DNA of 60,711 bases, the filler included, from Stramenopiles sp. TOSAG23-6 (lineage: Eukaryota): the NCBI GenBank assembly GCA_900128565.1. It is 12 parts of 12 records of this genome, joined end to end, with 100 filler letters (N's around TTAATTAATTAA, not from the genome) between each part and the next. Parts side by side here need not be neighbours in the genome. Positions count along the whole stretch, not along the records: positions 1 to 4,987 come from LT636995.1; positions 5,088 to 10,069 come from LT636996.1; 10 more parts are not named here. One strand, given 5' to 3'. Positions 1-56,812 of the stretch are shown here, piece by piece (position 1 is the first letter of the stretch; the number at the start of each line of letters is the position of its first letter). Below the pieces are notes generated by a model, which did no database searches, was not told the origin of the DNA, and saw only the letters and a list, made by a program, of their open reading frames with translations. A program made the position numbers and the translations under genes.

Positions 1-288
1 TACGTTTTCATCATGAATTTCAAATTTAATTTTTTTTCCGTACCAAATTTTGTACCTAAACAAAAAAGATTTTTTTTATATTTTTTACAATACATGTACG
101 TTGTCCACTTAAATTTTAAAGTTTTGTTGTGCACCAAATTTAATAGCTGACTTATTTCAAGTTTATAAATATGTTTTCACAATATATGCGACTCGTAGAA
201 TTGATGGGGCATGTAGGTTTTCATTTTTTTTTGTCTACATTTTTTTCGTACGAAATTTTGTACCTAACATTTTTTTTTAATTATTCAG

Positions 289-3200
289 CGTTTGCAGTCA
301 GAATTTAATATTTTTGTTCCTCCTACAGCACTAAAAGATCCAGATTGGAAACGTCGTCTTCTGCGCCCGGCACTTTTTAATGTTATAATGAAAAATAGTT
401 CTGTAGACGAGCCATCGAATAATCTTGGTACGCATAGTGCCGATGAAGATGCATACTTTCATCTTGGTAGTATGCTAGGATTCTCGCCTAACGTATTAAG
501 AGGTGAACTTGCTTTAGAATGTGCTCTGGTGGGTAATGCATCTTCTGCACTTCGATGGGGTGAAGAATTGTGTATTTGTTGTGATCCGGATGATAATGAT
601 TCTGATGCTGTCAGTGTGACGCTGAGGGAAGCTGCTACAGCATTACTTCATTATGCATCAGAACATAAGGAAGTGTTCCTTCCCCAGCAACAACAGAAGC
701 TATCATATTGTCCAATTGCAGCAGCTTCACTAGTTGCACATAGTTTATTGCTGTGTCCAAATGATGAAATAGGTAATGTAACGATGCAGTGGCAGAAAGC
801 AGCTGTTGTTTCTGATGTTTTTGTGCTCAGCGAACTTGGTGATTATAATCAGCTATGGGCACCTTCGTCTGCGTTTTCAGGTCACATTGCGTCGGATTAT
901 ACTCATAGTGATATTGGAGGAGTTTCAGATGAAGTTGATATTTCCCTTGATTTATCAATGAGTGAACTCGATCGAAATGAAGTACATGAAAGTAATACAG
1001 GGCTAAACATTTATACCGAGTGGCAGAGAGATGAATGTTTTATTTTTTTTCAAATTCCAATTTTGTTTTCATACGAAATTTCGTACCTAACAATTTGTTT
1101 TTAGATTTTTGAAATATTTTTCCAAAATACATGAATGTGTCGTTTTACCTACTTTGAGTGCGATGAAATTTGCACTTGCAGCATATGTAGAAGACGACGA
1201 AATTAGTGGATTTCAACTTGCACAATGGCTATCTGAACAAAACGCGGATCAGTTGGCATTTCGATCTCTCATGTTAACAAGTAGATTTGCATGGGGAAAA
1301 TTGACGAAATGTCTTGATGATCATTCTCCGTATGGACTTGATAGTTCTACTCTTTCTGATGTGTCAGGTGGAGCATTGCGCGTCCGAATGACATCTGAGG
1401 AAGATGAAGGCGCCCGCGTAATGTCTTCTATTGAAAGGCTTCTAGGGAAAGGATTGCTTTCATTGCATATCGATGTTCCACTTAGTATAGCTTATATGTT
1501 GGCATTACCCCCCAAAGCAGCTTTCCATGGTTTCAGTGATACGCTACAGTCTTCACATGATGATTTTTCACGATTATTACAATTATCCCGTGTAGGTAAG
1601 GCTGCAGCTTCTGCATGGGGAGAAACTTCTTTTCTACTGGAATGCCGAGCTCTTGAAACTAATGCATATTGGTGGACAAGACTTGCACAATTAGGTGTGG
1701 ATTTTGAGAGTAGAAGGTTTCCTACTCCGACGCAGGGCTCTTCATCACAAGTAGCTGTATATTTACGATCGCTTTTACCGCTGTTATTAAAGCAGACAAA
1801 TTATGACATTGAAGAAGTTCTCCGGTTTTCTCAACAATATGGACTTGGAGATGAATTTGTCCTATGCAAATATGTACAACTTTTACTAATCAAAACTGAA
1901 ACATTATTGCCTAACCAAAAACATCGGCATCGTGATTCCTTGTCATCTTTTTGTTACAATAAAGATCTAAAAAATAAATTGGTTGAAGCTACATCCAAAA
2001 TAAGACCATCCAAACTCCAATCTTTGCTTGCTTCTGTTGTGAGCGAAATTAATGGAACTGAATATGAACGACTTCGTTTGGTGATAGGCTTGCAACTTGA
2101 AGCAGCCGACGAAGATGATAGAAAAACAAAAGAGTTACTGAATCTTCGATTACATATTATTGAAGTATTGTTACACTTTGACTCGTACTATAATAACAGC
2201 ATTGCTATACGAAACGGAGAGAAAAAAATACTAGATACCCAGGATACACCCCCAGTTTGCTTAGCCGCAATGAATGCCGCATTAGTCGGGGGGAAATCTT
2301 TAAAAAATGCGAAAAAGTTATCTCAAAATGACTTTGTATCTATAAACGTACCACAAAATAACATCGATAATGGTAATTTAGAATTTAAATTTCCATCAAA
2401 ACCAAATTATCACATACTCTTAACTAAACCCTGGGACACGATACTTCCTCTACTAGAGCCCAATACTTTGAAACATCTCATAGCTTTCAGTGCACCGTTG
2501 GGTCTTGAGGCTGATGAATTTGTTCATCGACTCATTCGGAAAATGTTCAATTTTGATGATACGAATAATTCTAACAAAAATAAAACTACAGCTATAAATA
2601 ATGAAGAACAAAATACGGTACAAAATATGACACCTGCATCTCAACAGAATCATTCCTCCATTCGTATTCCTAGTGTCAATCAACTAGAAGCACAATTACG
2701 TCGTATTCAAAGCCTCGAAAAGAAAATATTTGTCGCTGAGTGTACGTTTTATTTTTTTAAAATTTTGATTTTTTTTCGTACGAAATTTTGTACCTAACAG
2801 ATTTTACAAAAAAAATATTTTTTCACAATACGTGGGCTTCAGATCAATATCCTATGAGTCAAGCTCGTATTGACGTTCTCAACATTGCTATATCTGCTGC
2901 TGAACTTAGGTGCACATCAACTGATAAAGATACACAAAAGGTCAACTCTGATGCTAAAAATAATTTGTCAAGGCTTATTGCTAAAATGAATGCGAGTCGT
3001 ACACACTTGTCTTTGATGTCACTAGGTTTAGATATTGCTGAATTTAGTTTATATTTTGGAAATCCAAAAGAGCTAATTTGCCGATTATATCATGAACTTG
3101 CACCAGCTGCTGCTGTACAACAAGAACAAATTGAACAATCAAGTACAGGATTACTACAAAGTTTTATGGGTTTTTCAAATTCAAAAATTTTCCCACAGAA

Positions 3201-4909
3201 ATACAGCGAAAAAAAATTGCATGTAGAATGGCAATCTCAAATTGGAGTTGATGCATCTTCAGTAAATGTCACTGTCACACAATCAAGGGCTGCTATTAAT
3301 GTTCATTCGGTAGTTGCGGATATTGCTGCTCAATACGATCTTAATGCTGATAGAGTAAGAAGGTATCTCGTCCAACATTGGCTGTCTCATGGAGCTCAAG
3401 CACCATGCGTCGGTAATGACTCGGAACAGCCTTCATCAATTCATCATAGTACCACTCATGTTGCTTCTATACATGAGGGAAGTAGTAGATCTGTAGAACT
3501 AAATAGTGAAAATAAAAACGTATCACCGTTAACAATTAATAATAACCATATTAATGCCAATAAAAACAAGTCTGATAATAGAAATTTAAATGGAGCATTT
3601 CAAGTTGCTCCAACATTGGGATTATTCAATAGCAATGGAAAAGCAAAAGACAAAAATGTTATGTTTTCTATATCAAAGGATGAAAAAGAGGCAGCTGAAG
3701 AAATCGCTACAGCAACACGAATTTGCTATGTGTTGAGATGCCCGGAGAGTTCCGCAAGTAATCGACAATGTTACAAGTATCTATTAAAATTTGCTTTCTC
3801 GAAACCAAAAGGCAATAATATCGGCGTTTCACACCGTGCAAGAGCTCGAGCAATGCAAGCAGCATTAGGTCTTGCAACTGCTGTTTCAGAACGTGATATA
3901 TTGGAAGAAGTATATCAAACTGCTGCAGGTCCTTTCCGCACTGGTGGGGGCACTCTTAAAGAACTAGAGTCTCGATGGCGAGTTGAGTTATATTTACATA
4001 AGTTGGCATCATTGAGAGTCCCACTGACATCTACACAATTTCAAGCGTGTGACAAGTTAGGGCTTGTCCGAGGCCTTTGGAAGAATAAAGAACGTCGGAG
4101 AGATCCAGTGATCGTATCGTTATTGTCACAAATAATGCTTGATTATGAACTACAAGATGTACAATTATGGACTGCTCTATTATGGGAAATGCATCATTGT
4201 GGCATGCATCGCAGACTTTTAAGTTTATTGGGCCCTTTATCAACATTTAATTGTATTCAGACGGGCTGGTCAAAAAATGCTTCGAGAACAGATTTACAAA
4301 AAGTTTGGGTTGCAATTTTAATGGAACCAATCCGCCAGATCGAATCAAGTGTGTCAAAGTTTGTTGGTGTGAACGGCNNNNNNNNNNNNNNNNNNNNNNN
4401 NNNNNNNNNNNNNNNNNNNNNNNNNNNNNNNNNNNNNNNNNNNNNNNNNNNNNNNNNNNNNNNNNNNNNNNNNNNNNNNNNNNNNNNNNNNNNNNNNNNN
4501 NNNNATTTTTTTTTAATTTCGAATTTAATTTTTTTTCATACGAAATTTTGTACCTAAAAAATTCTGAATGTTTTTTTTGAAATATTTTTCCAAAATACAT
4601 GTACCACTGGCCAAATTCGTAGAGCTATCGTTGAAGCTTGGATTCAATCGAGCTGCTATAATGTGTGCATCTGCGGCATCTACAAAAGAACAACGACATG
4701 ACTGCGCAACTGCTGTGGTCAAAGCAGATGATAGTTTACATCTGACAGAATCTTTATTACAATATTTATGCCCAAGTCAAGGTAGCTGTATTGGTACTGG
4801 CCACGCCATGGTAAGGACACTGCTTGGTGTAATCAAAGTGAAACATCAAAGTATTCCTGAAAGTCTTGAGAAATATTTTGATGAAGATTATTTTGCAAAG
4901 AAAAATTGA
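289..4909 (+). CDS. KNTC1: Kinetochore-associated protein 1 / Rough deal (ROD), 5'-partial, multi-exon (introns ~1033-1132, 2742-2833, gap-4600)
   Basis: C-terminal region SHRARARAMQAALGL...LRVPLTSTQFQACDKLGLVRGLWKN...LDYELQDVQLWTALL and WWTRLAQLGVDF resemble KNTC1 (Rod_C) motifs as recalled. ORFs join in frame when the repeat introns are removed (...QRD|ECV..., ...VAE-W-ASD...). Confidence 0.8.
1033..1132 (+). other. Repeat-family intron, GA...AT (or GT...AT if slid 4 nt to 1037-1136)
   Basis: Contains TACCTAAC and ends CCAAAATACAT; flanked by the 8-nt direct repeat ATGAATGT; removal joins ORFs 292 and 1109. Confidence 0.8.
2742..2833 (+). other. Repeat-family intron, GT...GT
   Basis: GAGT|GTACGTTTT...CACAATACGT|GG; removal joins ORFs 1109 and 2788 in frame. 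Confidence 0.8.
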
Positions 4910-4987
4910 AAACTTGATGATGGTTTGTAAAAATATTTTTTTTTTAGTATTTTTTTGTTAGGTGCAAAATTTAATACAAAAAAAAAA

Positions 4988-5087
4988 NNNNNNNNNNNNN
5001 NNNNNNNNNNNNNNNNNNNNNNNNNNNNNNNTTAATTAATTAANNNNNNNNNNNNNNNNNNNNNNNNNNNNNNNNNNNNNNNNNNNN
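4988..5087. other. Artificial contig spacer (N-run + TTAATTAATTAA + N-run). Also at ~10070, 15145, 20219, 25288, 30356, 35424, 40488, 45546, 50603, 55658.
   Basis: Identical ~100-nt linker with stops in all six frames recurring every ~5.06 kb; contigs sorted by decreasing length. Confidence 0.97.
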
Positions 5088-5156
5088 AAAAAAAATCGTT
5101 AGGTACAAAATTTCGTACGAAAAAAAAATCGAAATTGAAAAAAAAATAAAACAAAC

Positions 5157-5894
5157 ATGATGTGTCGTATCACTGAAAAAGTCTTCAGAATCTCTAAAGT
5201 AAGTCGAGAGTTCGGTCTCCAAAATGTCTACTACAGACATTAGTTTCTTATGTTTCTTTTGTAATCTTTCTTTCGCATTATTTAAAAGTTCAACTTTTTG
5301 GTTGTCTCGGCTCTTGGCTTGTATTTGTTTGATTTGGTTAGAAATCACTGTTTTACTTTTTTTCAAAGTGGTTACATCTTGCAAATATTTCAGAAGTTCA
5401 CTCTTTTTGGTATCAAAGTTGGGAAAACTGACTTTATGGGGGATTTCATCATAACTATGTAAACATTCTTTCAACTCCCTGAGTCGAGTTTCCAAAGGTA
5501 ATAATTTCTGCTCAATTTTGAACAGTTCCTCTTGTTTTGTTTCAATATTTACTCGAATATCTTCCGCTTTATTTGCAGCGTGGTGTTCTCGAAGACGAGC
5601 GTCTTCAATGCGCGCAATGACATTATCGTCATCATCTTTTATTTCTTCAGATACGCAGTCGACATTTTTCAAAGGGTTCCAGTTATCCGTACTTTTATCA
5701 ATTCGTAGGAAGGCAATTTCATGCTCCAGTGAAGATAATTTAGCGTTGCTTTCTGCCCACTGACTTGATGTTTGCTCTAAAAGTTGAGTTTTGGCAGCAA
5801 GCGCTTTTCGAAGTTGTAAGTTTTCAGTTTCTATTTTAGAGTGATAATCTTGTTTTTCGACGGAAGAAGTGGCATCGTCAACAGCCCAGGTCAT
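5157..5894 (-). CDS. Coiled-coil protein, first exon only (3' end lost at contig edge inside a repeat intron)
   Basis: Heptad-rich ORF; donor AT|GTTTGTTTT at 5156 followed by the branch motif. Confidence 0.6.
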
Positions 5895-6273
5895 TTGGGA
5901 GATGACTAAGAGAACCTTGTATTCCTTTAACCCAAATAACTTATTTTTGAGTTGATAGTGGTGATAGATTTCGAGATCTGAGATTTAGACTATATATCAT
6001 CAAAAAAAATCACAAAATCAATCAACTTTAATCAACTTTAATGATTTTTTTCAAACAAAAAAGGTTCTTAGAGATGTGAAACATGAGATTTTTTTTTTGA
6101 TGTCGGCGTTTTTATCCCCGTTTGAAATGAAATCACGAAATCCGGAAATCACGAAATATAACACTATATATACCAGTTCCTCATGAAAAAGTATTCAGCA
6201 GCTTCTTCTTGTGATCTATCCTTCTTACTTGTTTGAAGTTCAACATAATTGAATTATTGACGAAAGTCTTGGA

Positions 6274-9200
6274 ATGCCAATGACATCTACAAATGGAGGT
6301 TCCCAGGACAATTCACAGGTATGGAATATTACTTGTCCTCCCAATGCATTGCCCGGAATGAGCGTCCAATTCAAAGTTGACGGTGAAACATTCCTAGCCA
6401 CGGTGCCTCAAGATTCAAAGCCAGGCGATGTTATCAGCGTAGTTCTAAATAGAGGTCTTACCAATGTGAAATTCGAAGGTCTACTAGAGAAGCAGTCGTC
6501 TGATTTAAGACGGCGTTGGCAACGCCGTTGGTTTGAAATATCAAATGGAAAATTGAAATACTTTGAGTCGCAGTCACGGCTACACCTAAAGGGGCGTTTC
6601 ACAATACGACATTTTTCTGCTCAACCTGTCAAGTCTCGGAGAACCATATTTAAACGGGCCAGTGAAGACTTTGACTTTACTGTATTCATAACATCATACA
6701 AAACATCAAAGGAAGTTAAAATCAGATTGCCATCGAGTGATCTCAAGAAACGACGGGAGTTGGAACTTGCATTGCAGTCTGCCGTGCACTTCACCAATTC
6801 TGCTCAAAATAATTTTGAGTCTCAAACTGATTACAATGCTGTAGTTGAGAAAGCGACTTTATCGCGTAAAGCCGATCTTACGTGGTGGAGATATTTAGGT
6901 GGTGAATTTACACCTTCCCTGGAGTCTATAATTTCTAATTGTATGGATCCAACATCGGTAGTTCAAGTAGATGCTACTCTTTTACTTCTCGATTTTGCAC
7001 TACGCAAATCTGCCGTAGATGATGTCAATAAAGCTTTTAGTACAATACAAAAAAATGATATTATCACCAAAAGTCTGTTCCAAGTTGGTTGGATTCAGCG
7101 TTATGTACAAGTGATTTTATCTAATCCACTTTTAGCGGAAAGTAATCGTACAAAAAAGGTTTTCAAAGAACTACGTGAATTTTTACCGTTTTTCTTGCCA
7201 AGGTTTAAAGCGGCAACAAAGTTAGATCTTTGCGAATTATTTATTGCAAATGCGAGTGCATCTGTATCTGCATCGACGAAGTCTTTACTTCGTGGATCAC
7301 TTCGTAATAATCAACGAAAAGATTTGAATGACTTTAAGAAATTGTCTATCGACGATGAAGACAGTTGTAATAGTGATGATACGAATGGTACATTAGATAC
7401 CAAACTTATGGAAGAATTCATCCGAGCAACAGAAGCTCTTACTGTTGCAGCTGTTGAATTACAACTCTGGGTACTTCCTAAGGACCCTTCTGATGATGGA
7501 GGTAGGAGACTTGCACATGATTTACGCACGACTCCTCAGCTTCGAATTCGTTTAGATCCACACCACCCATTTCGTATATGTACGTTTTCATCATTCATTT
7601 CAAATTTAGTTTTTTTTTCATACGAAATTTTGTACCTAAACAAAAACGGGTTTTTTTTGAGTTTTTATTTGATACGTTTTCATTTTTCATTTCAACTTTT
7701 TTTTTCTCCAAAATATTTTGTACCTAATGAATTTTTTTTAGGAATAAAGAATACTTTTCACTTTACATGGCTTGACTCGTTAGAAAAATTACTTGAACTG
7801 CATTTAATTATAATGGAAACTCAACCTTCGGGGGAGGAAACTCTTCAAAAATTTTCAAAAAGTTTCAATGCAATACCTAGAAAATTAATTCTTAGTATGT
7901 TATCGTTCTCATTTGCTGGTAAACTCACAAGCTCTCTAGTCAACTTATTAATGGTAAAAAAAATTTCATTTGGTCAGACTGTCCTTCAACGAATTATGTG
8001 GATTTTACTGGATGGTTCAAGTTTCGCTACACGTCGAGATGAGCAATTTGAACGCATTCCTAAAGGCCCAAGAAAGCGACTCAAAGATCAGCTCAAAAAT
8101 GTGGAGAAGGTTTTTAAAGATATGAAAAATATGGACCCATCGAGTGATGTGAACAGTTTTTACATTGCTGCTGTTGAAAATGTCGTTCCTATGTGGAAAG
8201 CCACGGATAAGGAAAAGATACTATTGACAGAAAATGTTATTCGATCAGCTCATGCTGCAATAAATGAACAAAAGAATTTAATCAATTTAAAAAGTCTCAT
8301 CGAAATGGCTGGTTGTGCTCCGGTGACTAATATGATTAAAGTTATATTCCCACTGATATATAACCCTGTTTTTGCTTCATTGACCACAAAAGGTGTAAAG
8401 TTGAAACAGTCACTTTCAGCAATTTTTAACCATATTGAAAAACTTATAAAAATGGTAGGAACTAATAGAGATGCTCATGCTGACGCTGCTGATAATGGTA
8501 CTAATCACATTGATAATAGTGATATAATTGCTCGCCATCGTGTACGTTTTTTTTTCGTACGAAATTTTGTACCTAACAAATTTAAGTTTTTTTTTTTTGA
8601 TTAATCATTCATTTTTTACCTACATGTTTTTCATAGACAATTTTGTACCTAACGATTTTTTTACTAAAAAACAACTATTTTTTCACAGTACATATAGCAT
8701 ATCGAAAAATTATTCAGCAAATTATTGAAGAAGGAACATGTCTGCTTCAGCGAATGCTAACTGTTGAATATGAGAAAAGAGCCTGTAAAAATACAGAAAT
8801 ATACAAATCCCAAGCAAAAAATTGTGACGAAAATAGTACACAAAAATCGTTCAAGGATTCAAATAACGATATGCTTTGGCATAGAATCATTTCATATGTA
8901 TGTTTTATTTTTTTTTCAAATTCGATTTTTTTTTTCGTACGACATTTTGTACCTAACAAATTTTAGTTTTTTTTTTTAAATATTTTTCCAAAATACATGC
9001 ATCTTCATTTGTTTCTCGGGTTGGTGTAGATCCAAATTACGTTTTGGATAAGGTGAATGGTACGTTTTCAACCCTAACCCTTATTTCATTTTTTTTTCCT
9101 AGAAAATTCCGTACTTATCGAATTTCGAATTTGATATATTTTTTCGAATACATGTTTGCCAAAAGAGAAGCAATCCATCATTTGGTCTGAAGTTGCAACA

Positions 9201-9498
9201 TTGATGCCAATGTGTTGTAAAACAACTTTATCTCCCAATGAAAATCGTTTTCTGAAAAAGAATGAGAGTTACATCCCTGGTTTACTTCAAAAACTTCCAA
9301 AAAAGGCTCAACCAGCAATGTATGTTTTATTTTTTTTTTTTTTGTATAAATTTTTTTTTCGTACGAAATTTTGTACCTAACGTTTTTTTTTGTTTTTGAA
9401 ATATTTTTCCAAAATACATGTCTTCAATTTTAAAAGGATTTGACCCGCCAAAATGTGAAGGTAATTGTGAATCATTTTTCAGAGCAGAAGCAAAATAA
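6274..9498 (+). CDS. PH-domain protein with a possible PX-associated DUF3818/Lec1(Ypr097w)-like C-terminal region; introns 7580-7768, 8542-8693, 8898-8998, 9060-9153, 9320-9419
   Basis: PH signature FEGLLEKQSSDLRRRWQRRWFEISNGKLKYFES. All five GT...AT removals give one continuous frame to TAA at 9498. The DUF3818 likeness (LLMVKKISFGQTVLQRIMWILL) is from memory and weak. Confidence 0.7.
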
Positions 9499-9679: not shown

Positions 9680-10017
9680 TTAACCTTTCGAATCTAATGT
9701 ACATAATGAAATCGCCATTTGAATCTTTTTAGTCCAATCAAGTCTCTCCAGAGATGTATTTTGGAAAAATATTTCAAAAACAAATTGTTAGGTACAAAAT
9801 TGCGTACGAAAAAAAAACTTGGAATTTGAAAAAAAATAAAACGAACATGATTCCACAGACATATACAACACAGATGCTCCAGTGACTACAGAAAATAAAT
9901 AGCGAGACGTGCTAGCATTGAACGTTTTTTCTTTGTCGTGTTTATTATTGATATCAACAGTGGAATCTTTGTTCAAGATAAATTCTCCTCTAGTAGAGTT
10001 ATTACCAGAAGTTTCAC
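9680..10017 (-). CDS. 3' end of a PH-domain protein (intron 9754-9846)
   Basis: Spliced product YLFSVVTGASVLYMSVESSLERLDWTKKIQMAI is a typical PH C-terminal strand and helix with the conserved W. Confidence 0.65.
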
Positions 10018-10729
10018 ATATATTGTAAAAAAAATTAAATTCGAAATTTGTTAGGTACAAAATTTCGTANNNNNNNNNNNNNNNNNNNNNNNNNNNNNNN
10101 NNNNNNNNNNNNNTTAATTAATTAANNNNNNNNNNNNNNNNNNNNNNNNNNNNNNNNNNNNNNNNNNNNAAACGCAAAGAAAGAAATTATTTCTAAATCT
10201 TGAAATATACCAAGACACAAAATAACAAGATAAAATACTTTCACTACACATAGACTATACCAAAGAAGAGCAAATATTTTTTTGACCTTTGTATAGAAAA
10301 AAATCAATAAACGAAAAAAAATGAAAAAGGTAAAAAAATACAAAAACAAAGAAGAAGAAGAAGAAACTTTAAAGTTGGATGAGTTGTTTTTATACAAATT
10401 ATGTTTTTTATTACGTTTTATTTTAATAAATTATTTAGTTTTAATTTTGATACTTTGATTTTATTATTATTTCGATGAATTATTTTGTCTTAATTTTGAT
10501 ACTTTGATCTTTGATTTTATACGTTTGTTGTTTGATTACAATCAATACCCGACGGTTGTTTTTTTTGCGTTTTTTTTCAACGTACGGTTAAAATTCAACG
10601 GTTACACTCCCTTTTTTCTTCTTCTTCTCATCAAGCTAGAGTTCTCATTGGGAGAGTTTCCAGAATGGCTTCAATTTTTTTCTTTAAAGAGTTCAAATGA
10701 TACAAATTAGATTTTATATGCACTAAATA

Positions 10730-13700: not shown

Positions 13701-15144
13701 TAAAACGATTAGGTCTTGGGCTTAATTTAGCTCAAGTAAAAAAACTTGTTGAATGGTTTGCTTTTACCAATACGGATAAAAATATTAAAAAAAGAGAATC
13801 AAAAGTTATTGTTACTTATGAACAATTTGAGATGAAAATGCGAGACTTTGACCCAGATATTCCAAGACAGGGCGATTTGAGTAGTTATAATATGTCATGG
13901 ACAATAAATAAGCGTCAAGCAATGCTAGCAGAAAAAATGAGTCGAGGTATAGGTGTACTACAACAGGACAATTCAAAACATCTAGTGAANTATGCACCTT
14001 TAGAGAAAAATACTTTACGCGATTTTTTCCTCGGTTTGAAGGCAACACATGGAGCAGGCAAGTCTGGTAGTCTTCCTANATCAATCCTTGGAGATCTTTT
14101 GGATGAATTTGAGCAACATGACCATCGACGTGATGGAATTGTTGATATCGATCATTTTCGAGGTGTTTTATTACGNTTTCGTACTGGGCTTCGTCCACAG
14201 CAAATTGATGAACAAATCGCAGTGTGGAGTCGTCGAGGAACTGTGAATTATTTTGAATTCATAGCAAAGCTCAGGGGATTTGATCAAGCACTTTTGAATG
14301 GAAAAATTAGACTATATACACCAAAAGAATACTCTCATAAAATTGGGACGAGACGGCCAAAGAAACCAAAGATATCTAGTAGTAGTAAAACACTTACAAA
14401 ATCTCAAAAATCTCAAAAATCTTTCAATGAGTCAAACAATCAGAATGATCAAAATAAAAGTAAATCATTGCTAACGAAAGATTCAACCGTTCAAAATCAT
14501 AGAAAAGGAAACAAAACTAAAGAAATTCAATTACAAAAACAACATCATTTAAAGAAATCTAAAAATAAAGAAATTCGAGGAAAACAGAAAGTAAAATATG
14601 ACCCCGCTCGATGGAAAGCACCAAAACCTCGAAAAAGAAAGAAAACTGAAATATTAAAAGAAAAGAAAAAATTGAAGCGCTTTTTATGGAAAAAATTTCT
14701 CTACGATGAAAAATTTGGGAGGTCAATCAGACAATCTAAACGATCTAAACAAGTAAAGAGAAGAAGACGAGGCAATCTAAAAGTACAAACTTCAAAACCA
14801 GAATGTTACCCAAATACAAAAAATACAAAAAATACAAAAAATACAAAAAATACAAAAAATACAAAAAATACAACAACTTTACGTCTTCAAAACAATAATG
14901 TATATTCTCGTTTATATAAATCTGGGGTAGAACATACAAAAATGCATAATAATACTTGGCCTGATGGCACGCGTAAATTATGTGACACCCAGTCAATCCA
15001 AAATTCATTGGGTACAAATTTACCTATAAAGAAGACGTCTATCGCATTACCTAAGATACGAAATCGAGGACGTACACGTACTACTGTTGAAACAAATGGA
15101 AAAGAAAAGTGTTTTCATTCTCAAAATATTTTGAAAGGAAATAC
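10730..15144 (+). CDS. Large intronless protein with an IQ motif and degenerate EF-hands, 3'-partial
   Basis: IQ-like LQATFRKYLVQK; EF-like FEQHDHRRDGIVDIDHFRGVL and FQVLDQPREGFTN; K-rich tail. Confidence 0.65.
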
Positions 15145-15815: not shown

Positions 15816-18800
15816 TCAAATTAAAGATGTCACCTTACATGCATATGATTTCAACGTATCATTGGCCTGTTTAGCTGCATCTTCTGAACATAATGAAACA
15901 ATATTTCCAGAAGAAACAATAGAGTCCAATGCAGTTGCAAATGATGCTACATCTTCTAAAGTTGTACCCAATATTTCTTCACGTCGTTGTTGACGAGTTT
16001 CAATTGATTCTTTTAAAATATATCGCAGAGTTTCAGTGTGACCTTTGGAATCTGGCAATTGATATGCGTCGACATCTCCAATAGTAGCAATGATTGCTTT
16101 ATTTAATGCATCCGTAGCACCTGGACTTTCAATAAATTCTCTTCTTAAAAATTCTGGAGTACCATCATATGTTGATATAGTCTCATTTAAATTTGGATCA
16201 CGATATGAAAGATATTTAAAATCACCACTACGCCAATTAAATGAACAGAAACCACCATGTATTTTGGAAAAATATTTCAAAAAATCTAAAAAAAAATGTT
16301 AGGTACAACATTTCGTACGAAAAAAATAAATTCGATTTTTTTGTAAAAAAAAAAAAATAAAACATACATATGCACCACCAACGACTCGTACACGATCCCA
16401 TAACCATGTTGTTCCTAATAATTTGGAAACAACTGCAGAACTTCCATGGGATGTAAAGTCACTATTCTCATAGAGATTTCCACCCTTTGCAACATAATTG
16501 ACTTGAGTAGGTATTGTAAATAATTCATTTGTTTTTGTTTCTGTTGTAATCCAACCATTTTGACTTAATAATGATATATTATTTGTACTAGGAGATGGTA
16601 ATGCATCTATAGCCCTATATAAAACTTCACCAACATGATTCATATCATTTGTATCTGCTGTAACACCCATTACAATGTTATCTTTAGTTATAATCGTGTC
16701 TCGAATTCTATTCAATTGGTTTTGGATGATTTTCCATTCAGAATCAACTGCCAGTTTTTGATTTAATTCACGTAAATGATCTAAATAAGAAATTCCAGAT
16801 ATTTCTTCAGAAAACCAACCAGATGATCCATTATGCATACTTAGACGAGTAGAACAAATACCATGTCCACTAGAAACGACAGAATTTTCTTTATGAGCTA
16901 AAGCTTCTTTTGCAAATAATTGAAATTTTTCACGATTAGAAAAATCAGCATATAACAAAATATCTTTCATGATATTTGATAAAGCTGTAGCTTCATTTGA
17001 CATGGCTTTACCACGTACCATTAAATTACATTGTGCATTATTAGGTTCACCAAAACGAGCACCACTTGAAAGTGAAAGACCAATCCCTCCTGTATATTTA
17101 CCAATTCTTTGAGATAATTTAACAGCATCTTCGCCAGTTGTTAATCCAATATCTTTCAAAGAACGAGCAAACAATGGTAATAAGTACACATCTTCTTTTT
17201 GAACAGATGATAAATCAAATGCCATATCTACATATGTTATTCCATTTGTATACATGTTATGATGAAGTATTATTGAATTATCATTGTGACTATCTTGAAA
17301 CGACCAAGGATTTGAATCTATTGTTGTTGAATATAATGGCATATCACTCACAGATAATGATGGTACCATTGCAAGAACTTCCGCAGAATCTGTAGTTTCC
17401 TGTAATTTACGAAGTTCTAATGTCTTTTTCACTGCATCTTCAATATCATAACTGTTCATAGTACTTTTGACTTTTGCAAGTGTTTCCTTTTCAGCTACAT
17501 CTTGGGCTTGTTCAACATTTGAATCGGGTACCATTTCTAAAGTTAATCGATGAGAATTTTCTAGTAAATATTCTTGAATTATATTTTGTAAATCGGAACT
17601 TTTTGGATGTAAAAGTTTTGTTTTAATGCGCTCAAATGGTTCAGATATTTTTAATGCTTCTATTGGATCTTCATTATATATCCACTGTTGTGTACTTCGA
17701 AGTAGATGCATCAATCCTCTTGGATATGAACCAGAATTATTTTCTTTCAACGCAAACTCAATTGTATTAATTGAAGCATCAAGTGCATCGCGTTTAAAGC
17801 CTTTTGAAGCACATGTTTCCAATGTTTTCAAAACAAGTGCTTCGACATCATTTGTATTATCACTTGAAACTCCTTTCAGACCAATTGAAAATGTTGGTTG
17901 AAGTAACTCACTACCAAGTCCACTTCCAATTACAGCTGATCCAATACCAGAATCTGTCAATGCTTTGTGTAAAGGTGCTGATGTTGAACCTAATAGCAAA
18001 TGATCAAGAATTCCTAGCATAATCATTGTTTCAGTTGTTGGTCTTTTACCTCCACCTAAAACCCAATTTACACTTAACATATGACGNCCAGTTTCTTTTA
18101 GTTTACTTTTATCATTTTCATCCATTGTAGTTCCATCTTCAGACATCATATACAATTGCTGATGATACTTGGGTTCTTTCCAAGAAGGTTGTAAAGTAGT
18201 GTGTGGTATTTTCCCACAATTTGTAAATGATTCATGTGACAAATACTCATCTAGTATATGTAATCGTTTCTCTGGACAGTCATCTCCATAAAACCAAATT
18301 CGTGAGTTAGACGGTTGATAATGTCTTTTATGAAAATTTTGAAATTGCTGAAATTGTAGAGATGGAATTTCAGTTGGTTGACCACCATAATCATATTTAT
18401 AACAATTATCTGGAAATAAATTTTGTGAAACAGCAGTGTGGTGAACAGCATCTGGGTCAGAGTAAACGCCCTTCATTTCATTAAATACAACACCTTTATA
18501 CTCTAAGTTACTATTTGATTCAGTAATATCATAATGCCATCCTTCTTGTGCTAAAACATTAGAGTCATGCACAGCCCGAGGAAAAAATACTGCATCTAAG
18601 TACACATCTACTAAATTATAATAATCTTGTAAATTACAACTTGCGACAGGATAACATGTTCGATCAGGGTAAGTAAACGCGTTCAGGAAAGTTTGTTGGG
18701 AACTTTTGAGAAGTTCGACAAATGGTTCTTTCAAAGGATATTTCCGACTTCCACAAAGAACCGAGTGTTCCATAATATGTGCAATACCTGTACTATCTTC

Positions 18801-21361: not shown

Positions 21362-24300
21362 ATGTTGTCTCGACGGGCACAACTAGAGGCGTTTAAGCAG
21401 CGTCGGGCAAATGCAAGACCCCGACGGCGATCTGCTAGCAGTTTACATGAGCGATATGCGGAGGTTTCAAAAAATCACAGAGCACCTCCCCTTAGGACTC
21501 GAGATTTAAACTCATTGAGTCACGAGAGTCGCAGAAGTATGTCCACCCCCTCGTCTCCTGAGCATAAACGAAATCACGATACTCAACTACAAAATATGTT
21601 CCCACCATCTACCCCTTCTTCTTCAAAGTCGAATATGAATAGGGTACACCAAACACCAGTGCGCTCCAGTGTATCACGACGACAACATCAGCTATCTCAG
21701 CAACAGTGCATTCCAACCCCCTCAAGAGCAGCAGCTGCTGCAGCTGCCGCAAAAAGACGTAAAATGTCATCTCATGTACACCAAACACCAAAGCGCAGTA
21801 GTTTTACTTCTGTAAACTCTAATATTCTTTTATCCAAAGAATTCCAAATGTCAGATTTGGGTCAATTTTGTAGAGAATCGAGTGACATTGACGAAGATAA
21901 TTTACGGACATCTGAACAAGTCGAACTAGAAAGTCTTCGTATTACAAACGAGTTATTACGCGACGAACATACTGACTTGGTAGAAGCCAAAGAGCATGCT
22001 TTGAAAGAAAATGAAGAATTAAAAATAAAATTAAACGAATTTTCTTTACAATTGAAAAAGAATGCAACAAATATTGATGATGATCATAATGTTGGCAATG
22101 ACTTCAAGAGCGAGAAAACATTGAATGATCTAAGGGAACAACTCAAAGATTCAGAATGCCTTCGTGAAGAACTTCAAAACAAAATATCTGAAACACAAAA
22201 GACGAGCTTTGCGTTGGTGAATGACATCAACGCTCTCAAAGCAACAACAGAAAAACAACTTTTACAAGTACAACAAAAACACGAAAAACAACTTTTACAT
22301 GTACAACAAAAACATGAAAAACTAGAAAATTCGTACAATGGTCTACATGAGGAGCGTACCAAATTATTATTAACAGATAAATCCAATGCAACACTTGTTG
22401 AAGAATTGAAAAAAGAAATTAAACAATCAAAAATAACAGAAGAAGAAATACAAAATAAATTGGAATTAATCAAAAATGAGAAATTAAATGTCCAACGAAA
22501 TCTTGAAAAAAAAATTAATGATTGTCAACGTCTAAAAGGAAATCTTGAAAAAAAAATTAATGATTGTCAACGTCTAGAAGGAAATCTTGAAAAAAAAATT
22601 AATGATTGTCAACGTCTAGAAGACAAAATAAAGACAAAAGATAAAAACATTGAATTAATGGAAAATTCTACAAAATCATTAAAAACTGAATTGAAACATT
22701 CCAAAAGGATATTTCTTGAAGAATCTGCTGGTTTTTCTGAGAAATGTATGTTTTAATTTTTTTTTAACTATGAAATTTTGTACCAAACCAAAAAAACCAA
22801 AAAAAATCTAAAAATCTAAAATTTTTTTTTTTTTTAATTTTCGTATATAATTTTATACCTAACAAAAGAAAATGAAATGTTTGAAATATAAATCAACAAA
22901 ATATATGAATATGCCTCTCAGCTACAAGAACAGGCGGAAGCCGAACTAAATGAACAAATACATCTCACAAACGAATCAAAAACAGATGCTGAAATGCAAC
23001 GCGCTTATATTTTAGGCTTGGAAGAAGAGTTGGACTGTAACGACAAAAAATTATGTAATTTTTTTTTCATACGAAATTTTGTACCTAACAAAAATTCTAT
23101 ATGTAATTTTTTTTTTTTTTACATTTTTAAACTTTTTTTAATATTTTTATATTTTTTCAAATACATCTAAAGCAAAGATTGAAATTGAATCTCAATTTCA
23201 ATGTATTCAAACTTTAAAAAATGAAATTGAATGTATGAATATGTATGTTTATTTTTTTTTCAATTTCGATTTTTATTTTTTTTTATAAAAATTTTGTACC
23301 TAACAAACTTTAATTTTTTTTTTTTGAAATATTTTTCCAAAATACATGAATTTTGTGCCTATTGATCTCTTAACATCTATTCAAGATCAATTAACTAATC
23401 TTGAATCATTATCAGAAGGAAAGGAAATTCTTATGGATGATGTACAAAATACGAATCAACAGCTTGAATTATTGATTGGTCAACAAAAGGATGAAAATGT
23501 AAAGATAAATACTGAATGTACGTTTTTTCTAAAAATGTAGAAAATATTTTCTAAAAATATTGTTTTATACGAAATTTTGTACCTAACAATAAAAAAAAAA
23601 TAAAAAAAAAAATTGCACAATGTAGTGGAAAAAGTGAAAATACTTGCAAAGAATGCAGATTCAGATAAATGTATTTTATATCGTAAATTATCGTCTTTAC
23701 AAAATAAGCATGATGAAGAAATGAATAAATTAAACATTGTTGTACGCGATATTTCACAAAAAGCGATTATTTCTTCAATTAAAAACAAAACACTTGTTGA
23801 GAAAACCAATCAATTACAAAGTAATAACAAAACACTTGTCGAGAAAACCAATCAATTACAAAGTAAAAACAAAACACTTGTTGAGAAAACCAATCAATTA
23901 CAATCCATGTATATTTTATTTTTTTCAATTTTTTATCTATATTTTTTTTTGTTTTTTTATAAAAATTTCGTACCTAACAAATTGTACAAACCTAAAAAAA
24001 AAAATATTTTTCACAATCCATGCTAGACAACGTACAATCGATTAGGGTTAGGGGTAAAGATGACGTCATTGATGCAAGTACAAATACTGATTCTACAACT
24101 ATTATTCAAACAATGGATGTAGCTGTTAATACAGATATGGATCTTTCTACTACTACTACTATTACTACAAAGGAATCAGAAAAAGAAATCATTGAAAGAC
24201 AAAATCGGTCGTTACAACAAGCTAAAAATATATCAAAATTAGAGACAAAAGTCTCAGAAAGCAAAACAAAATTAGAATGTTTACAAGTATGTTTTTTTTT

Positions 24301-48294: not shown

Positions 48295-48594
48295 TGTCTT
48301 TTTCTTTGTCTCGTAAAGGTTCGCTTTCCTTAGAGTACTAAGTTGTCTACAGAACGCCGACCGTTAAAATAACACAAAAACAAGGAAACAAGAACAGAAT
48401 GTAACGTCAATTTTTTGCGCATTTGTTACCCGGTACTTTATATTTTAAAATGAAAAAATTGACAGCTATTTTGAGCCACACACGAATCTATCATCAACAC
48501 TGTTAACTTTGACTACGTAATCCAGTAAGTAGGTACAAGTGTCAAGTGCTCAGCATACAATAATTCTTCTTTTTCTCTATAAAGGTGGTCTACA

Positions 48595-50544
48595 ATGACG
48601 GACTACATGGCAGAACTGATTACAGAGACAGGGTTGGCTGTGCCTGCACCGAATACTATGCGAGGGCATCGTACTCCTATTTCTGTAAACGCTAAAGATG
48701 GGGACACGTTTGCATACGGCGCAAAAAAGATGACAGTCATCCGTAGTTTACGTACGCCGTCTACTTCTTTGGTTGACACGAATCATCAAGAAACAGTCCG
48801 TGTTGCTCGATTTGATAAAAGTGGTTCTTGGGTAGCAAGTGCAGACGTAACAGGAGTACTCCGCGTGTGGGCTTGGAAACGGGAGGATCATTTATTGAAA
48901 AAGGAAAGTCGACCAATTGCAGGAGAGGTTACAGATTTGGCTTGGGATTCCGACTCAAAGCGCATCGCTGTAGTTGGAAAAGCCCGGGGATGCAAAGGCA
49001 AAGTTGTTGGATGGGACACAGGATCGGCGATGGGTGAGCTTACGCAACACACTAAAAATATCAATTGTTGTTCTTTCCGTCAATCTCGTCCGTTTCGTGT
49101 GTGTACTGGAGGAGAAGATAGAAATGTCATTTTGCATCAAGGACCTCCGTTCAAAGTGCTTTTGCGTAATAAGGCCGGACATAAAAATTATGTAAATGCT
49201 ATGGCATACAGTCCTGATGATTCTGTATTTGCTACGGGATCATCAGATACTCGTATTCGCATATGGGACGGGAAAACTGGAGAAAAACTAAAGCAAATGG
49301 CCTGTACGTTTTTCAACCAAATGTCTACTTTTTTTTGTTACGAAATTTCATACCTAACATTTTTTTTTTCCCTTTTCAAATGAATGACTAGAATGTATCG
49401 TTCAATTTGAAGTTTATTTTTATACCACATTCTCTGTATCTAAACATATTTTCGAATTGTGCATATTTCTTTACTGTACACGGAAAGGTGAAAATCCTGG
49501 ACACGTAGGTTCCGTGATGGATTTGTGCTGGTCAGAGGATGGAAAAACAGTAATTTCCTGTGGTAGTGACAAAAAACTTTGCTGGTATGATCTTGAAACA
49601 CGAGCGTGTTTGAATGAGTGTATTGTCCGTGATAAAGTTACCGTGACTTCGTTTCCAGATCTAAAACCGCAAGTCCATCATCAGCTGGTTAGTGTTTCTC
49701 GGTGCGTTTTCATTTCAATTTCGAATTTGGTTTTTTTTTCGTACGAAATTTTGTACCTAACGATTTTTTTTGAAATATTTTTTCATAATCCATGTGCGGC
49801 GATAAATTATTAGTAGGCTCTCTTGCTGGAGATATCAATGTCATTGAAGCTACAGATGGCACATTTGTCGACACTATATATAGTCATACATCTATGGTAT
49901 CTAAAAATAGTCTTGTACTCGCATCCGATGGGAAAACAGTTTATTCAGGAGATCTTGGTGGTATGATTTTCTGTTGGGATGTTACTGCTGATTACCTTCA
50001 GCTTTCACGATTACCTGGTTATGCTGTGCCTGACGATAACCGAATGGCACATGATGGTTGTGTGCAAGGTATCGCAGCTCTTACTAACAATTGTCTTTTG
50101 TCTGTTGGTAATGATGACACGTGTCGTGTTTGGATGAATGGAGTCTCAGCAGGTGTTGGGGATAAACTTGGAGGCCAACCACGTTCTATGGTGTCTGTTG
50201 GTCCTTCTGATAAGGCTACTATGGCCATTATTGTGACTTCGAAAAATAAAGTTCTTACGGTCAATGGGTCAGGGAAAATTATTTCATCATTCGATTTACC
50301 TTATTCTGCTAGTAATGCTCTTGCTGTGTCTGTAACTGGAACTGAAATTGCTATTGGTTCATCTCAAAGAGGTAGAGGTGTAATGCATAGATATGAACTT
50401 GTTGATGGCGTAATTGGCAATGAGCTTCAAAAAGTCTGTGGTAATGCAGAATATTATGAGAATGCTGAAGACGCAGAGTATTCTCCGGATGGCACGATGT
50501 TGGCTGTTGGCTGGGGAAAAGGAGAAGTTTCGCTATATGAAAGT
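48595..50544 (+). CDS. WDR1: Actin-interacting protein 1 / WDR1 (WD40), 3'-partial; introns ~49304-49475 and 49702-49793, donor at 50545
   Basis: PAPNTMRG...VARFDKSGSWVASADVTGVLRVW, FRQSRPFRVCTGGED, HQGPPFK. Confidence 0.88.
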
Positions 50545-56481: not shown

Positions 56482-56575
56482 ATGTATTGTGAAAAAATAT
56501 TTCAAAAAAAAAAAATCGTTAGGTACAAAATTTCGTATGAAAAAAATATTAAATTAGAAATTCATATAAACATAC

Positions 56576-56812
56576 ATGAATACAAGAGATTTTGCATGTT
56601 TCTTGATTAATTCCTGTTCAACAATGTCCCTTAGTTTTGATTCACTTGACGAATCTAAGTAGTGAACCACACGATCAATTTCTTCTTTTAACCTAATCTT
56701 TGCCTTTTTTAAATAATCAGGACAACTATTTTCTATTAAGTACGCCTGGGATTCACCCTGATAAAATAATCGAGTTTGTTCGAAAAATGGAATTTCAAAG
56801 TCGATTTCATAA
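56576..56812 (-). CDS. CUL3: Cullin-3-like exon (absent from the ORF track)
   Basis: Hand translation YEIDFEIPFFEQTRLFYQGESQAYLIENSCPDYLKKAKIRLKEEIDRVVHYLDSSSESKLRDIVEQELIKKHAKSLVF resembles the cullin-3 repeat region. Confidence 0.8.

What the first reader, a model, noticed from the sequence alone, without database searches (positions are those of the whole stretch)
1031..9419. Introner/MITE signature: short terminal inverted repeats and target-site-like duplications supply the acceptor
Seen: the element core runs GTAY...RTAC (GTATGTTTT vs AAAATAC, an imperfect inverted repeat). The last two intron bases often copy the last two bases of the upstream exon: AT/AT in most cases, GT/GT at 2740/2832, TT/TT in Rab intron 2. 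Longer junction repeats occur: ATGAATGT (1031/1131), ACAATCCATG (~23900/24014), GTGCG (49702/49794). Established: introners are non-autonomous DNA transposons that co-opt target-site duplications as splice sites. Inference: a mass intron-gain event by an element targeting NT(G), tolerated because or as AG dependence was lost. No transposase is visible in this window.
Basis: partly seen in the sequence, partly recalled or inferred. Interest (0 to 1): 0.85.

Follow-up and report, generated by a model that had tools for sequence, protein, structure and literature searches.

The report
Repeated intron family with non-AG ends
Nearly every intron in these contigs from an AT-rich marine microbe is a copy of one ~100-base repeated element that starts with GT but mostly ends with AT instead of AG; it looks like a mobile intron-making element, but the claim that a target-site duplication supplies the splice acceptor holds only in part.

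Summary
The repeat is real. A 21-base core occurs 37 times against 0 expected, and 48 profile hits cover 5.6% of the window. The copies interrupt ORFs in the sense orientation. Removing GTAYG…(TAC/TCC/TAT) plus 2 bases restores the frame in 25 of 27 curated introns. One of the two misses is an assembly chimera. Ten junctions align to homologues: eight without a gap, one with no gap inside a long alignment listed only by its coordinates, and one (49304) with its 3' end left uncertain.

These are therefore GT…AT introns without an AG acceptor. This rests on reading frame and homology, not RNA, because the one RNA run showed no spliced joint.

The exon-end and intron-end dinucleotides are identical in 19 of 26 introns (shuffle mean 14.7, p=0.001). 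That drops to p=0.035 once 5'-end subfamilies are separated (n=27). Four homologue-checked introns break the rule. At two of them the conserved residue shows that the exon keeps its own bases and the terminal AT is cut out. The inverted repeat is only about 4 bases and gives no RNA pairing beyond shuffles.

Verdict: an introner-like intron family with AT acceptors that the element mostly carries itself. The 2-base flank repeat is suggestive. The insertion mechanism is unresolved. New variant of a known kind.

The parts
1033..1132 (+). Intron in the KNTC1-like gene. Its 5' end reads GAATGT rather than GT. An 8-base repeat, ATGAATGT, spans both junctions (1031-1038 and 1131-1138).
   Evidence: in frame, with 255 open codons upstream and 554 downstream.
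2742..2833 (+). Intron in the KNTC1-like gene of the GTACG type. The exon ends in GT and the intron ends in GT.
   Evidence: Both flanks lie in one colinear alignment to KNTC1 homologue P0121.
4505..4600 (+). 3' part of an intron copy, ending ...AAAATAC+AT. Its 5' part is lost in an assembly gap.
4918..4988 (-). Diverged copy lying antisense, 10 bases after the stop codon of the KNTC1-like gene, so probably not an intron. Its 5' part runs into the contig end.
   Evidence: the minus-strand frames downstream carry stops or low-complexity sequence.
5093..5156 (-). 5' part of an intron copy (AT|GTTTG...) that runs into the contig end.
7580..7768 (+). Composite intron made of two copies head to tail, removed as one 189-base unit. 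Flanks AT/AT.
   Evidence: gap-free alignment to P0124 across the junction.
8542..8693 (+). Composite intron with two branch-point cores. The exon ends in GT and the intron ends in AT.
   Evidence: the homologue has RHR, which matches keeping the exon GT.
8898..8998 (+). Consensus-type copy, flanks AT/AT.
9060..9153 (+). Diverged copy. The exon ends in TG and the intron ends in AT.
9320..9419 (+). Consensus-type copy, flanks AT/AT. There is no AG between the branch point and the 3' end.
9754..9846 (-). Copy in a minus-strand gene, flanks AT/AT.
16257..16367 (-). The only intron seen in the presequence protease gene. It splits the conserved GGAY|GGF motif. Flanks AT/AT.
   Evidence: gap-free alignment to plant PreP P0002. 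The nearest AGs are out of frame.
23909..24021 (+). Intron whose last 9 bases plus the next exon base repeat the last 9 exon bases plus the first intron base.
   Evidence: k=9, m=1.
28087..28182 (-). Intron in the Ras/Rab-family GTPase gene, flanks TT/TT.
40014..40107 (+). Intron in a class-III aminotransferase gene, flanks AT/AT.
   Evidence: exon 1 ends at residue 318 of PDB chain 6tor_A and exon 2 residue 3 aligns to 322, which is exact once the split codon is counted.
49702..49793 (+). Intron in a WD40 gene. It starts GTGCG, as does the next exon. The exon ends in CG and the intron ends in AT.
   Evidence: the conserved Arg in homologue P0123 requires the exon CG to be kept and the AT to be removed.
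56482..56575 (-). Apparent intron that is really an assembly mis-join inside the repeat. A Cullin-3-like exon lies upstream and an eIF2B-gamma-like exon lies downstream.
   Evidence: It was one of the two frame exceptions.

Best explanation
These are spliceosomal introns belonging to one propagated sequence family, an introner-like, non-autonomous intron-generating element.

Each copy is about 90-110 bases and carries its own signals. These are a strong donor (GTAYGTTTT), a long conserved branch-point block (...AAATTTTGTACCTAAC) that ends 32-48 bases before the 3' end in most copies (69 and 77 in two), a T-rich tract, and a conserved 3' terminus (CAMAATAC followed by two bases, AT in most). 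Splicing removes everything from the G of GT through those two bases. The acceptor is therefore usually AT. AG, GT, TT and AC occur once each, and a few introns that have lost the family 3' end appear to use AG.

Shown: the copies exist, they form a family, the excised length is exact, and the exon-side dinucleotide is retained in two informative cases.

Inferred: the spliceosome removes them, and they spread by insertion. New copies landed preferentially after an exonic AT, usually followed by G. That leaves AT on both sides, either as a 2-base duplication or as microhomology with the element's own terminal AT. I do not think the flank repeat generally creates the acceptor. The element mostly brings it.
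For: Family and copy number:
- The core occurs 37 times against 0 expected. 48 profile hits cover 3365 of 59611 bases.
- The best pairs, from different genes and contigs, are 85-88% identical. Mean identity is 0.69 against 0.60 for shuffled copies.
- The 3' variant CAAAATA[CT] occurs in 9 of 18 non-GTRCG introns and in 0 of 9 GTRCG introns (my count from the table).
- 9 of 24 contig ends lie within 30 bases of a copy, against 10% of all positions (p=3e-4). One contig is mis-joined inside a copy.
- In RNA run X1, 1266 contigs laid on one 5-kb contig. Summed depth reached the thousands over the copies and was near zero over the exons.

Precise removal:
- The family rule is in frame in 25 of 27 introns, while a frame-compatible AG exists for only 13 of 27.
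- Junctions are gap-free against PDB 6tor_A, PreP P0002, P0124 for five introns and P0123 for intron 49702. The flanks of 2742 lie inside one 931-residue alignment to P0121, of which only the coordinates were printed.

The exon keeps its own bases: Arg is conserved at 49702 and at 8542.

Insertion bias:
- The exon ends in AT in 20 of 28 introns against a background of 0.10 (p=2e-14).
- It is 17 of 18 in the GTATG group but 2 of 9 in the GTRCG group, so this is not a general splicing requirement.
- The dinucleotides are identical in 19 of 26 (p=0.00125).
- At 93-96 two copies are joined head to tail by a single AT. An antisense copy lies just past a stop codon.
Against: - There is no RNA proof. 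The one available run showed no spliced joint over the contig that was laid, so splice sites rest on reading frame and homology.
- Only about 50 copies from 60 kb could be studied. No genome is held, and two metagenome scans found no copy.
- Copies are moderately diverged (nearest neighbours 64-88% identical). The most conserved blocks are exactly the presumed splice signals, so selection explains part of the similarity.
- The flank covariation is weak after stratification (p=0.035).
- No empty site, polymorphism or autonomous element was seen.
- One intron (22746) remains out of frame under the rule.
Confidence: 0.6

Rival explanations
1. The element is a MITE-type DNA transposon with terminal inverted repeats that makes a 2-base target-site duplication. 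The 3' copy of that duplication is the acceptor dinucleotide in every copy.
For: GT/GT (2742) and TT/TT (28182) sit in two introns that are each other's closest relatives. AT/AT is found in 17 of 26. The overall shuffle test gives p=0.00125. GTAT…ATAC together with the AT flanks gives a 6-base perfect inverted end in the main subfamily. Two copies are joined head to tail by one AT at 93-96. Published introners and Fritillaria introns do co-opt duplications as 3' splice sites (PMC11282704, passages read).
Against: Seven of 26 introns break the rule. At 49702 and 8542 the homologues show the terminal AT is not a copy of the exon end. In the GTRCG group the exon ends in AT in only 2 of 9 while the intron ends in AT in 5 of 9, so AT travels with the element. 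The stratified p is 0.035. The inverted repeat is absent in the ...AATCC subfamily and gives no folding signal. Repeat blocks of 5, 8 and 10 bases do not fit a fixed 2-base duplication. No transposase was seen in 27 ORFs scanned.
Confidence: 0.2
2. The family spreads without a transposase. Either an excised intron (RNA or DNA copy, possibly circular) or filler DNA is inserted at breaks or exon junctions, guided by microhomology to its joined ends (...ATAC-AT-GTAT..., a perfect palindrome). This would give flank repeats of variable length.
For: The repeat blocks vary: 2-3 bases in most introns, and 5, 8 and 10 bases in three. Blocks of 8 or more occur in 2 introns against about 0.08 expected from mismatched pairs. 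In those three introns the exon flank mimics the opposite end of the element, and the intron end deviates from the family consensus toward the exon sequence (GAATGT, GTGCG). Almost all copies are sense-oriented within genes. A paper proposing intron circles as transposition intermediates exists (PMC10996645, search listing and start of abstract only).
Against: An antisense copy outside coding sequence does not fit a purely RNA-level, sense-only route. Once the three long-repeat introns are left out there is no extended flank similarity (p=0.39). No circle junction was observed.
Confidence: 0.13
3. These are old, unrelated introns that look alike because this lineage demands long, strict splice signals. 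The similarity is convergent or maintained by selection, and the AT flanks are splice-site consensus.
For: The best conserved blocks are the donor, the branch-point region and the 3' terminus. Mean pairwise identity is only 0.69 against 0.60 for shuffles. Exon-end AT and intron-end AT parallel the canonical exon-AG and intron-AG pattern.
Against: Similarity extends through the spacers in the best pairs (85-88%). The 5' and 3' variants are linked into subfamilies. Composite introns carry two cores and internal end remnants (7580, 8542, 22746, 50903). Copies break and mis-join the assembly. An antisense copy lies outside coding sequence. Exon-end AT is specific to one subfamily (17 of 18 against 2 of 9). 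Large genes have very few introns: PreP has one.
Confidence: 0.06
4. The elements are removed from DNA, like the internal eliminated sequences of ciliates, rather than spliced from RNA.
For: They are short, AT-rich and interrupt coding sequence. They are flanked by a 2-base repeat of which one copy is kept, and have short inverted ends.
Against: They have strong donor and branch-point motifs. The element is abundant in an RNA library. The standard genetic code fits the long ORFs. Excision at the internal TA pair would leave two extra codons in the gap-free PreP and aminotransferase junctions.
Confidence: 0.01

Closest known systems
Introner elements of Micromonas pusilla, Aureococcus and others (reviewed in PMC11282704; surveys PMC9860276 and PMC12130899)
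   Same: Many introns in unrelated genes share one sequence. The elements are short and non-autonomous. They bring or co-opt splice signals and are found in marine protists. Short flank repeats and short inverted ends are reported for some families.
   Different: Published families are described with canonical GT/GC-AG ends and 3-base or longer duplications (passages read). Here the acceptor is mostly AT, the flank repeat is 2 bases and not universal, and the inverted repeat is about 4 bases. Supplements listing all introner-bearing species could not be opened, so I cannot say whether this organism is among them.
Non-canonical MITE-derived introns of the tunicate Fritillaria borealis (Henriet et al. 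2019, as described in PMC11282704; original not read)
   Same: A duplicated exonic motif is said to form a non-AG 3' splice site, and AC and AT acceptors occur. Splicing is by a U2-type machinery that tolerates them.
   Different: In Fritillaria the donor is also non-canonical (AG-AC, AG-AT). Here the donor is a strong GT site (27 of 28) and only the acceptor is aberrant. The organism here is not an animal: the best PreP hits are plants and the best named KNTC1 hit is a diatom.
Amoebophrya introner elements (PMC7789003, passages read) and euglenid/diplonemid nonconventional introns (PMC6221363, start of abstract in a search listing; PMC12621601, abstract)
   Same: Repeated introns with non-canonical ends and direct repeats of a few bases overlapping the junctions. 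A transposon-like origin is proposed although no transposase is linked.
   Different: Those introns have 8-20-base inverted repeats or extensive end pairing that brings the ends together, and no fixed terminal dinucleotides. Here eight copies fold no better than shuffles, and both the donor and the branch point are conventional.
U12-type and U2-type AT-AC introns
   Same: If both boundaries are slid 2 bases upstream, most copies would read AT…AC.
   Different: Homologues favour the GT…AT reading. The donor consensus is not of the U12 type. The branch-point block lies 32-48 bases from the 3' end in most copies, much farther than I recall for U12 introns.

Membership tests
Introner (intron-generating mobile element) | Introns at unrelated positions and genes share sequence along their whole length | tested here: met
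   The copies lie in KNTC1-like, PH-domain, PreP, Rab, aminotransferase, WD40 and other genes. The best pairs are 85-88% identical.
Introner (intron-generating mobile element) | Removal restores an intact, homologous coding sequence | tested here: met
   25 of 27 are in frame. Ten junctions were compared with homologues: eight are gap-free, one lies inside an alignment listed only by its coordinates, and one (49304) has an uncertain 3' end. This rests on frame and homology, not RNA.
Introner (intron-generating mobile element) | Recent gain: lineage-specific positions or presence/absence polymorphism | not testable with these tools
   No genome is held, no related assemblies are available, and metagenome scans found no copy.
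TIR DNA transposon / MITE | Target-site duplication of fixed length flanking every copy | tested here: inconclusive
   The dinucleotide is identical in 19 of 26 (p=0.00125), with stratified p=0.035. Seven introns are exceptions, four of them with both flanks aligned to one homologue. Three introns carry 5-10-base repeats.
TIR DNA transposon / MITE | Terminal inverted repeats characteristic of the family | tested here: inconclusive
   GTAT/ATAC plus T/A runs are seen in the main subfamily only. The 5' half coincides with the splice donor. No end pairing beyond shuffles was found.
TIR DNA transposon / MITE | A cognate autonomous element encoding a transposase | tested here: not met
   No transposase family was found in 27 ORFs scanned with Pfam. 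Only 60 kb were searched.
Hairpin-type non-canonical introns (Amoebophrya IEs, euglenid nonconventional introns) | Stable base pairing between the intron ends | tested here: not met
   Eight copies were folded, with z-scores from -1.73 to +1.18. Only a 3-4 bp end helix appears, and only in some of them.
U12-type introns | U12-type donor consensus and a branch point close to the 3' end | tested here: not met
   The donor is GTAYGTTTT. The branch-point block lies 32-48 bases from the 3' end in most copies. The U12 criteria are recalled, not looked up.
Conserved internal hairpin (GTACGAAATTTTGTAC) | Covariation that keeps the pairs | tested here: not met
   23 distinct sequences, 76.8% of cells paired against 77.2% in shuffles, and 1 compensatory cell. 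The 3' half is simply more conserved, which fits an extended branch-point signal.

The most novel reading that the evidence does not exclude
A protist lineage in which the spliceosome has moved genome-wide from AG to AU acceptors while keeping strong GT donors, in step with a burst of an element that inserts after exonic AT. Exon-end AT and intron-end AT would then mirror the canonical pattern of AG at the exon end and AG at the intron end. That would be a natural experiment on whether invading elements and their flank duplications set the identity of the proto-splice site and the acceptor.
Probability: 0.25. Interest if true: 0.85.

Novelty: new variant of a known kind. Interest (0 to 1): 0.6.

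Why it matters
Introners are the leading explanation for bursts of intron gain. How far the spliceosome bends to accommodate them is an open question.

Known large-scale departures from GT-AG (Fritillaria, Amoebophrya, euglenids) lose both ends or rely on end pairing. Here the donor and branch point are textbook-strong and only the acceptor has changed, mostly to AT, across what appears to be the whole intron complement of these contigs.

If RNA data confirm this, the organism offers a clean system for asking how a 3' splice site is chosen without AG. It would also allow testing whether the flank repeat comes from insertion, because subfamilies with strict and with loose exon-end AT coexist.

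In practice, standard gene finders would mis-annotate nearly every gene in this genome. The repeat also breaks and mis-joins assemblies.

Tried and rejected
- Whole genome: none is held.
- RNA evidence: the only run found (X1, a seawater metatranscriptome, 0.11 of the words) gave two exon pieces and no intron-spanning joint. The ten listed joints link different copies of the repeat. Absence of cover is not used as evidence.
- More copies from public metagenomes: the 21-mer gave 0 matches. A 15-mer gave 115 stretches, of which 80 became loci. None contained the element when searched with nhmmer at E<=1e-3.
- AG acceptors: only 13 of 27 introns have any frame-compatible AG, so AG was rejected as the general acceptor.
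- RNA end pairing and an internal hairpin were both rejected.
- Rfam gave no family in the window.
- An 8-base duplication covering the donor was rejected: there is no extended exon/intron similarity once the three long-repeat introns are left out (p=0.39).
- My first 3' end for intron 49304 (49427) was rejected after homologue P0123 showed a 14-residue excess. I re-set it to 49481, which is still uncertain.
- Introns 56575-56482 and 57076-56813 were dropped from the flank test. The first joins Cullin-3-like and eIF2B-gamma-like exons. The second spans a 108-N gap.
- Also left out of the flank counts: copies cut by gaps or contig ends (4505, 5156, 10039, 25476/30267, 45545, 50545), and copies without clear coding sequence on both sides (1-185, 213, 21072, 42452, 50903, 53456, 53691, 54952, 55627).
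- Looking for transcript-derived proteins of the same organism that cross a junction found only relatives at 38-48% identity.
- Taxon: not resolved. PreP is nearest to plants at 46-47%. The best named KNTC1 hit is a diatom at 29%.
- Literature: searches for the core motif with 'intron', for introner, non-canonical, TIR and TSD terms, for diplonemid single-cell genomes and for MAST-4 turned up no description of this family. Subscription papers and supplements are not covered.

Full report
**What the window is**

The 60,711 bases are not one locus. They are twelve contigs of 4,954-4,987 bases, sorted by falling length and joined by N44-TTAATTAATTAA-N44 linkers. The finding's span, 1031-9419, therefore crosses two unlinked contigs.

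- Contig 3 and contig 7 are 99.76% identical over 4,976 bases. Contig 6 carries a perfect 1,674-base inverted duplication at its ends. This looks like an amplified single-cell or binned assembly.
- GC content is 22-41%, and the standard genetic code gives long ORFs.
- Recognisable genes include a KNTC1-like protein, a PH-domain protein, presequence protease, a Ras/Rab GTPase, a class-III aminotransferase, RNase PH, and WD40, LRR, ankyrin, DnaJ, Cullin-3-like and eIF2B-gamma-like pieces.
- The nearest PreP relatives are plants at 46-47% identity. The best named KNTC1 relative is a diatom at 29%.
- The one public run sharing sequence is a seawater metatranscriptome.
- I take the source to be an AT-rich marine protist and leave its identity open.

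**The repeat is real**

- The 21-base core GTACGAAATTTTGTACCTAAC occurs 37 times at up to 3 mismatches, against 0.00 expected in 100 shuffles. It occurs 44 times at up to 4 substitutions.
- A profile built from 14 full copies finds 48 hits at E<=1e-3, covering 3,365 of 59,611 non-linker bases.
- The consensus over the 28 introns tabulated is exon …A21 T25 | G27 T27 A26 Y26 G24 T27 T28 T28 T26 … C22 A26 M25 A25 A22 T27 A23 C24 A26 T25 | G18 …exon.

**They are introns, and the acceptor is not AG**

I curated 27 copies that have coding sequence on both sides.

- Removing the stretch from the G of GT through two bases past the TAC/TCC/TAT motif joins the long upstream and downstream frames in 25 of 27, where chance would give one in three.
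- A frame-compatible AG anywhere between the branch-point block and 30 bases past the 3' end exists for only 13 of 27.
- One of the two exceptions, 56575-56482, is not an intron. Its upstream exon aligns to Cullin-3 residues 189-265 and its downstream ORF to eIF2B-gamma residues 356-445. The assembler joined two loci inside the repeat.
- The other exception, 22746, is unexplained.

Homologues pin the junctions:

- **Aminotransferase:** exon 1 ends at residue 318 of PDB chain 6tor_A, and residue 3 of exon 2 aligns to 322. This is exact once the split codon is counted.
- **PreP:** the intron splits GGAY|GGF, which aligns without a gap to plant GGAYGGF.
- **PH-domain gene:** five introns give gap-free alignments to relative P0124.
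- **WD40 gene:** intron 49702 gives a gap-free junction against P0123.
- **KNTC1:** the two flanks of intron 2742 lie inside one 931-residue alignment to P0121. Only its coordinates were printed, so I cannot say that it is gap-free at the junction.

One intron (23518) ends in AG where the family motif has mutated. A few introns that have lost the family 3' half have in-frame AGs (213, 53456). AG is thus still usable but is not required. All of this rests on frame and homology. The RNA run showed two exon pieces and no spliced joint.

**Which two bases are removed**

Because the exon end and the intron end are usually both AT, the intron could be read as GT…AT or, slid two bases upstream, as AT…AC. 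Two introns where the dinucleotides differ sit in conserved sequence and can decide.

- At 49702, keeping the exon CG gives Arg in QVHHQLVSVSRCGDKLLVGSL, and the homologue has Arg. Keeping AT would give Met.
- At 8542, keeping the exon GT gives RHR, as in the homologue. Keeping AT gives RHH.

The exon therefore keeps its own bases, and the intron is GT…AT.

**The flank repeat**

- After dropping the chimera and a copy spanning a 108-N gap, the exon-end and intron-end dinucleotides are identical in 19 of 26 introns: AT/AT 17, GT/GT 1, TT/TT 1.
- Re-pairing 5' and 3' junctions at random gives a mean of 14.68 (p=0.00125).
- The signal is partly a subfamily effect. In introns with GTATG-like donors the exon ends in AT in 17 of 18. 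In GTRCG introns it does so in 2 of 9, while the intron ends in AT in 5 of 9.
- Stratified by donor type, p=0.035 (n=27). In the ten introns whose two flanks are tied together by a homologue, the match is 6 of 10 (p=0.089).
- Four homologue-checked introns break the rule: GT/AT, TG/AT, CG/AT and CT/AC. At two of them the conserved residue shows the terminal AT is not a copy of the exon end.
- The exon-end AT in the main subfamily (20 of 28 overall against a background of 0.10, p=2e-14) is not a general splicing need, because the other subfamily lacks it. It looks like an insertion-site property.

**The longer repeats**

- Blocks of 8 or more occur in 2 introns, against about 0.08 expected from mismatched pairs.
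- In each case the exon flank imitates the opposite end of the element, and the intron end departs from the family consensus toward the exon sequence.
- Outside these three introns there is no extended similarity (p=0.39).
- Variable repeat length argues against a single transposase with a fixed duplication. It fits repair- or microhomology-guided insertion better.

**Inverted repeat and structure**

- GTAT/ATAC is 4 bases (6 if the AT flanks are included), followed by T and A runs.
- Its 5' half is the splice donor, and the ...AATCC subfamily lacks it.
- Eight copies fold no better than shuffles, with z-scores from -1.73 to +1.18.
- The near-palindrome in the core shows no compensatory change: 76.8% of cells are paired, against 77.2% in shuffles. 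Its 3' half is simply more conserved, as expected for an extended branch-point signal.

**Mobile family or convergent signals**

Evidence for common descent and spread:

- The best pairs, from different genes and contigs, are 85-88% identical along their whole length.
- The 5' and 3' variants are linked. CAAAATA[CT] is found in 9 of 18 non-GTRCG introns and in 0 of 9 GTRCG introns (my count from the table).
- Composite introns carry two cores (7580, 8542, 22746, 50903). Two copies are joined head to tail by a single AT at 93-96.
- An antisense copy lies 10 bases past a stop codon.
- 9 of 24 contig ends fall in a copy (p=3e-4), and there is the mis-join already described.
- 1,266 RNA-library contigs pile onto the copies of one 5-kb contig.
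- Large genes have very few introns.

Evidence against a very recent burst:

- Mean identity is only 0.69, against 0.60 for shuffles.
- The conserved blocks coincide with the presumed splice signals.

No transposase family appeared in the 27 ORFs scanned.

**Comparison with what is known**

- Introners that bring or co-opt splice signals, including acceptors taken from duplications, are established (PMC11282704 and PMC12130899, passages read).
- Fritillaria has AG-AC and AG-AT introns, with a duplicated exonic motif forming the 3' site (as described in PMC11282704; the original paper was not read).
- Amoebophrya has repeated non-canonical introns with 8-20-base inverted repeats and 3-5-base direct repeats (PMC7789003, passages read).
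- Euglenid and diplonemid introns rely on end pairing (PMC12621601, abstract; PMC6221363, start of the abstract in a search listing).
- This family differs from all of them. It has a conventional strong donor and branch point, no end pairing, and a mostly fixed AT acceptor that the element itself carries.
- My searches found no description of it. Supplements and subscription journals were out of reach.

**Verdict**

The introner reading is the best one. The specific mechanism, in which a duplication supplies the acceptor of a MITE with inverted ends, is only partly supported and is contradicted in four homologue-checked introns, at two of which conserved residues show that the terminal AT is excised.

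Noticed in passing
window 1-60711; linkers at 4988-5087, 10070-10169 and so on: The window is 12 unlinked contigs of about 5 kb each, sorted by falling length and joined by N44-TTAATTAATTAA-N44. Neighbouring genes across a linker are not physically linked.
   Followed up: yes
window 25388-30355: This contig has a perfect 1,674-base inverted duplication at its two ends. That is typical of a hairpin chimera from whole-genome amplification. The amino-acid-permease ORF therefore appears twice.
   Followed up: partly
window 10170-15144 and 30456-35423: These two contigs are 99.76% identical over 4,976 bases, so the same locus was assembled twice. They carry one intron-free 1,489-codon ORF with no Pfam match.
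   Followed up: partly
window 56482-56812, minus strand: A Cullin-3-like exon (aligned to residues 189-265) is joined through a copy of the repeat to an eIF2B-gamma-like C-terminus (aligned to residues 356-445). This is an assembly mis-join inside the repeat. The 108-N gap at 56910-57017 also lies inside a copy.
   Followed up: yes
window 45931-48363, minus strand: An 810-codon ORF encodes a very acidic Asp/Gly-rich repeat protein with no Pfam match. The DNA has a strong GC skew of -0.38.
   Followed up: no
window 58800-60300 and 15245-15700: Tandem repeats with offsets in multiples of 87 bases, about 80-84% identical, encode ankyrin repeats. They are shared between contig 12 and the start of contig 4.
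   Followed up: no
window 53500-53590 (minus strand) and 24880-24960: Short tandem repeats lie inside or next to introns: GTGTTTCTTT units, and T-rich units ending in CAAA.
   Followed up: no
window 50903-51064: This intron contains an internal 59-base tandem duplication that carries two copies of a variant core (TCGTAGTAAATTTCGTACCTAAC). Its ends could not be fixed because the upstream frames are short.
   Followed up: partly
window 213-340: This intron has the family 5' half and core but has lost the family 3' end. In-frame AGs at 297 and 306 could serve as acceptors, so AG sites seem to remain usable.
   Followed up: partly
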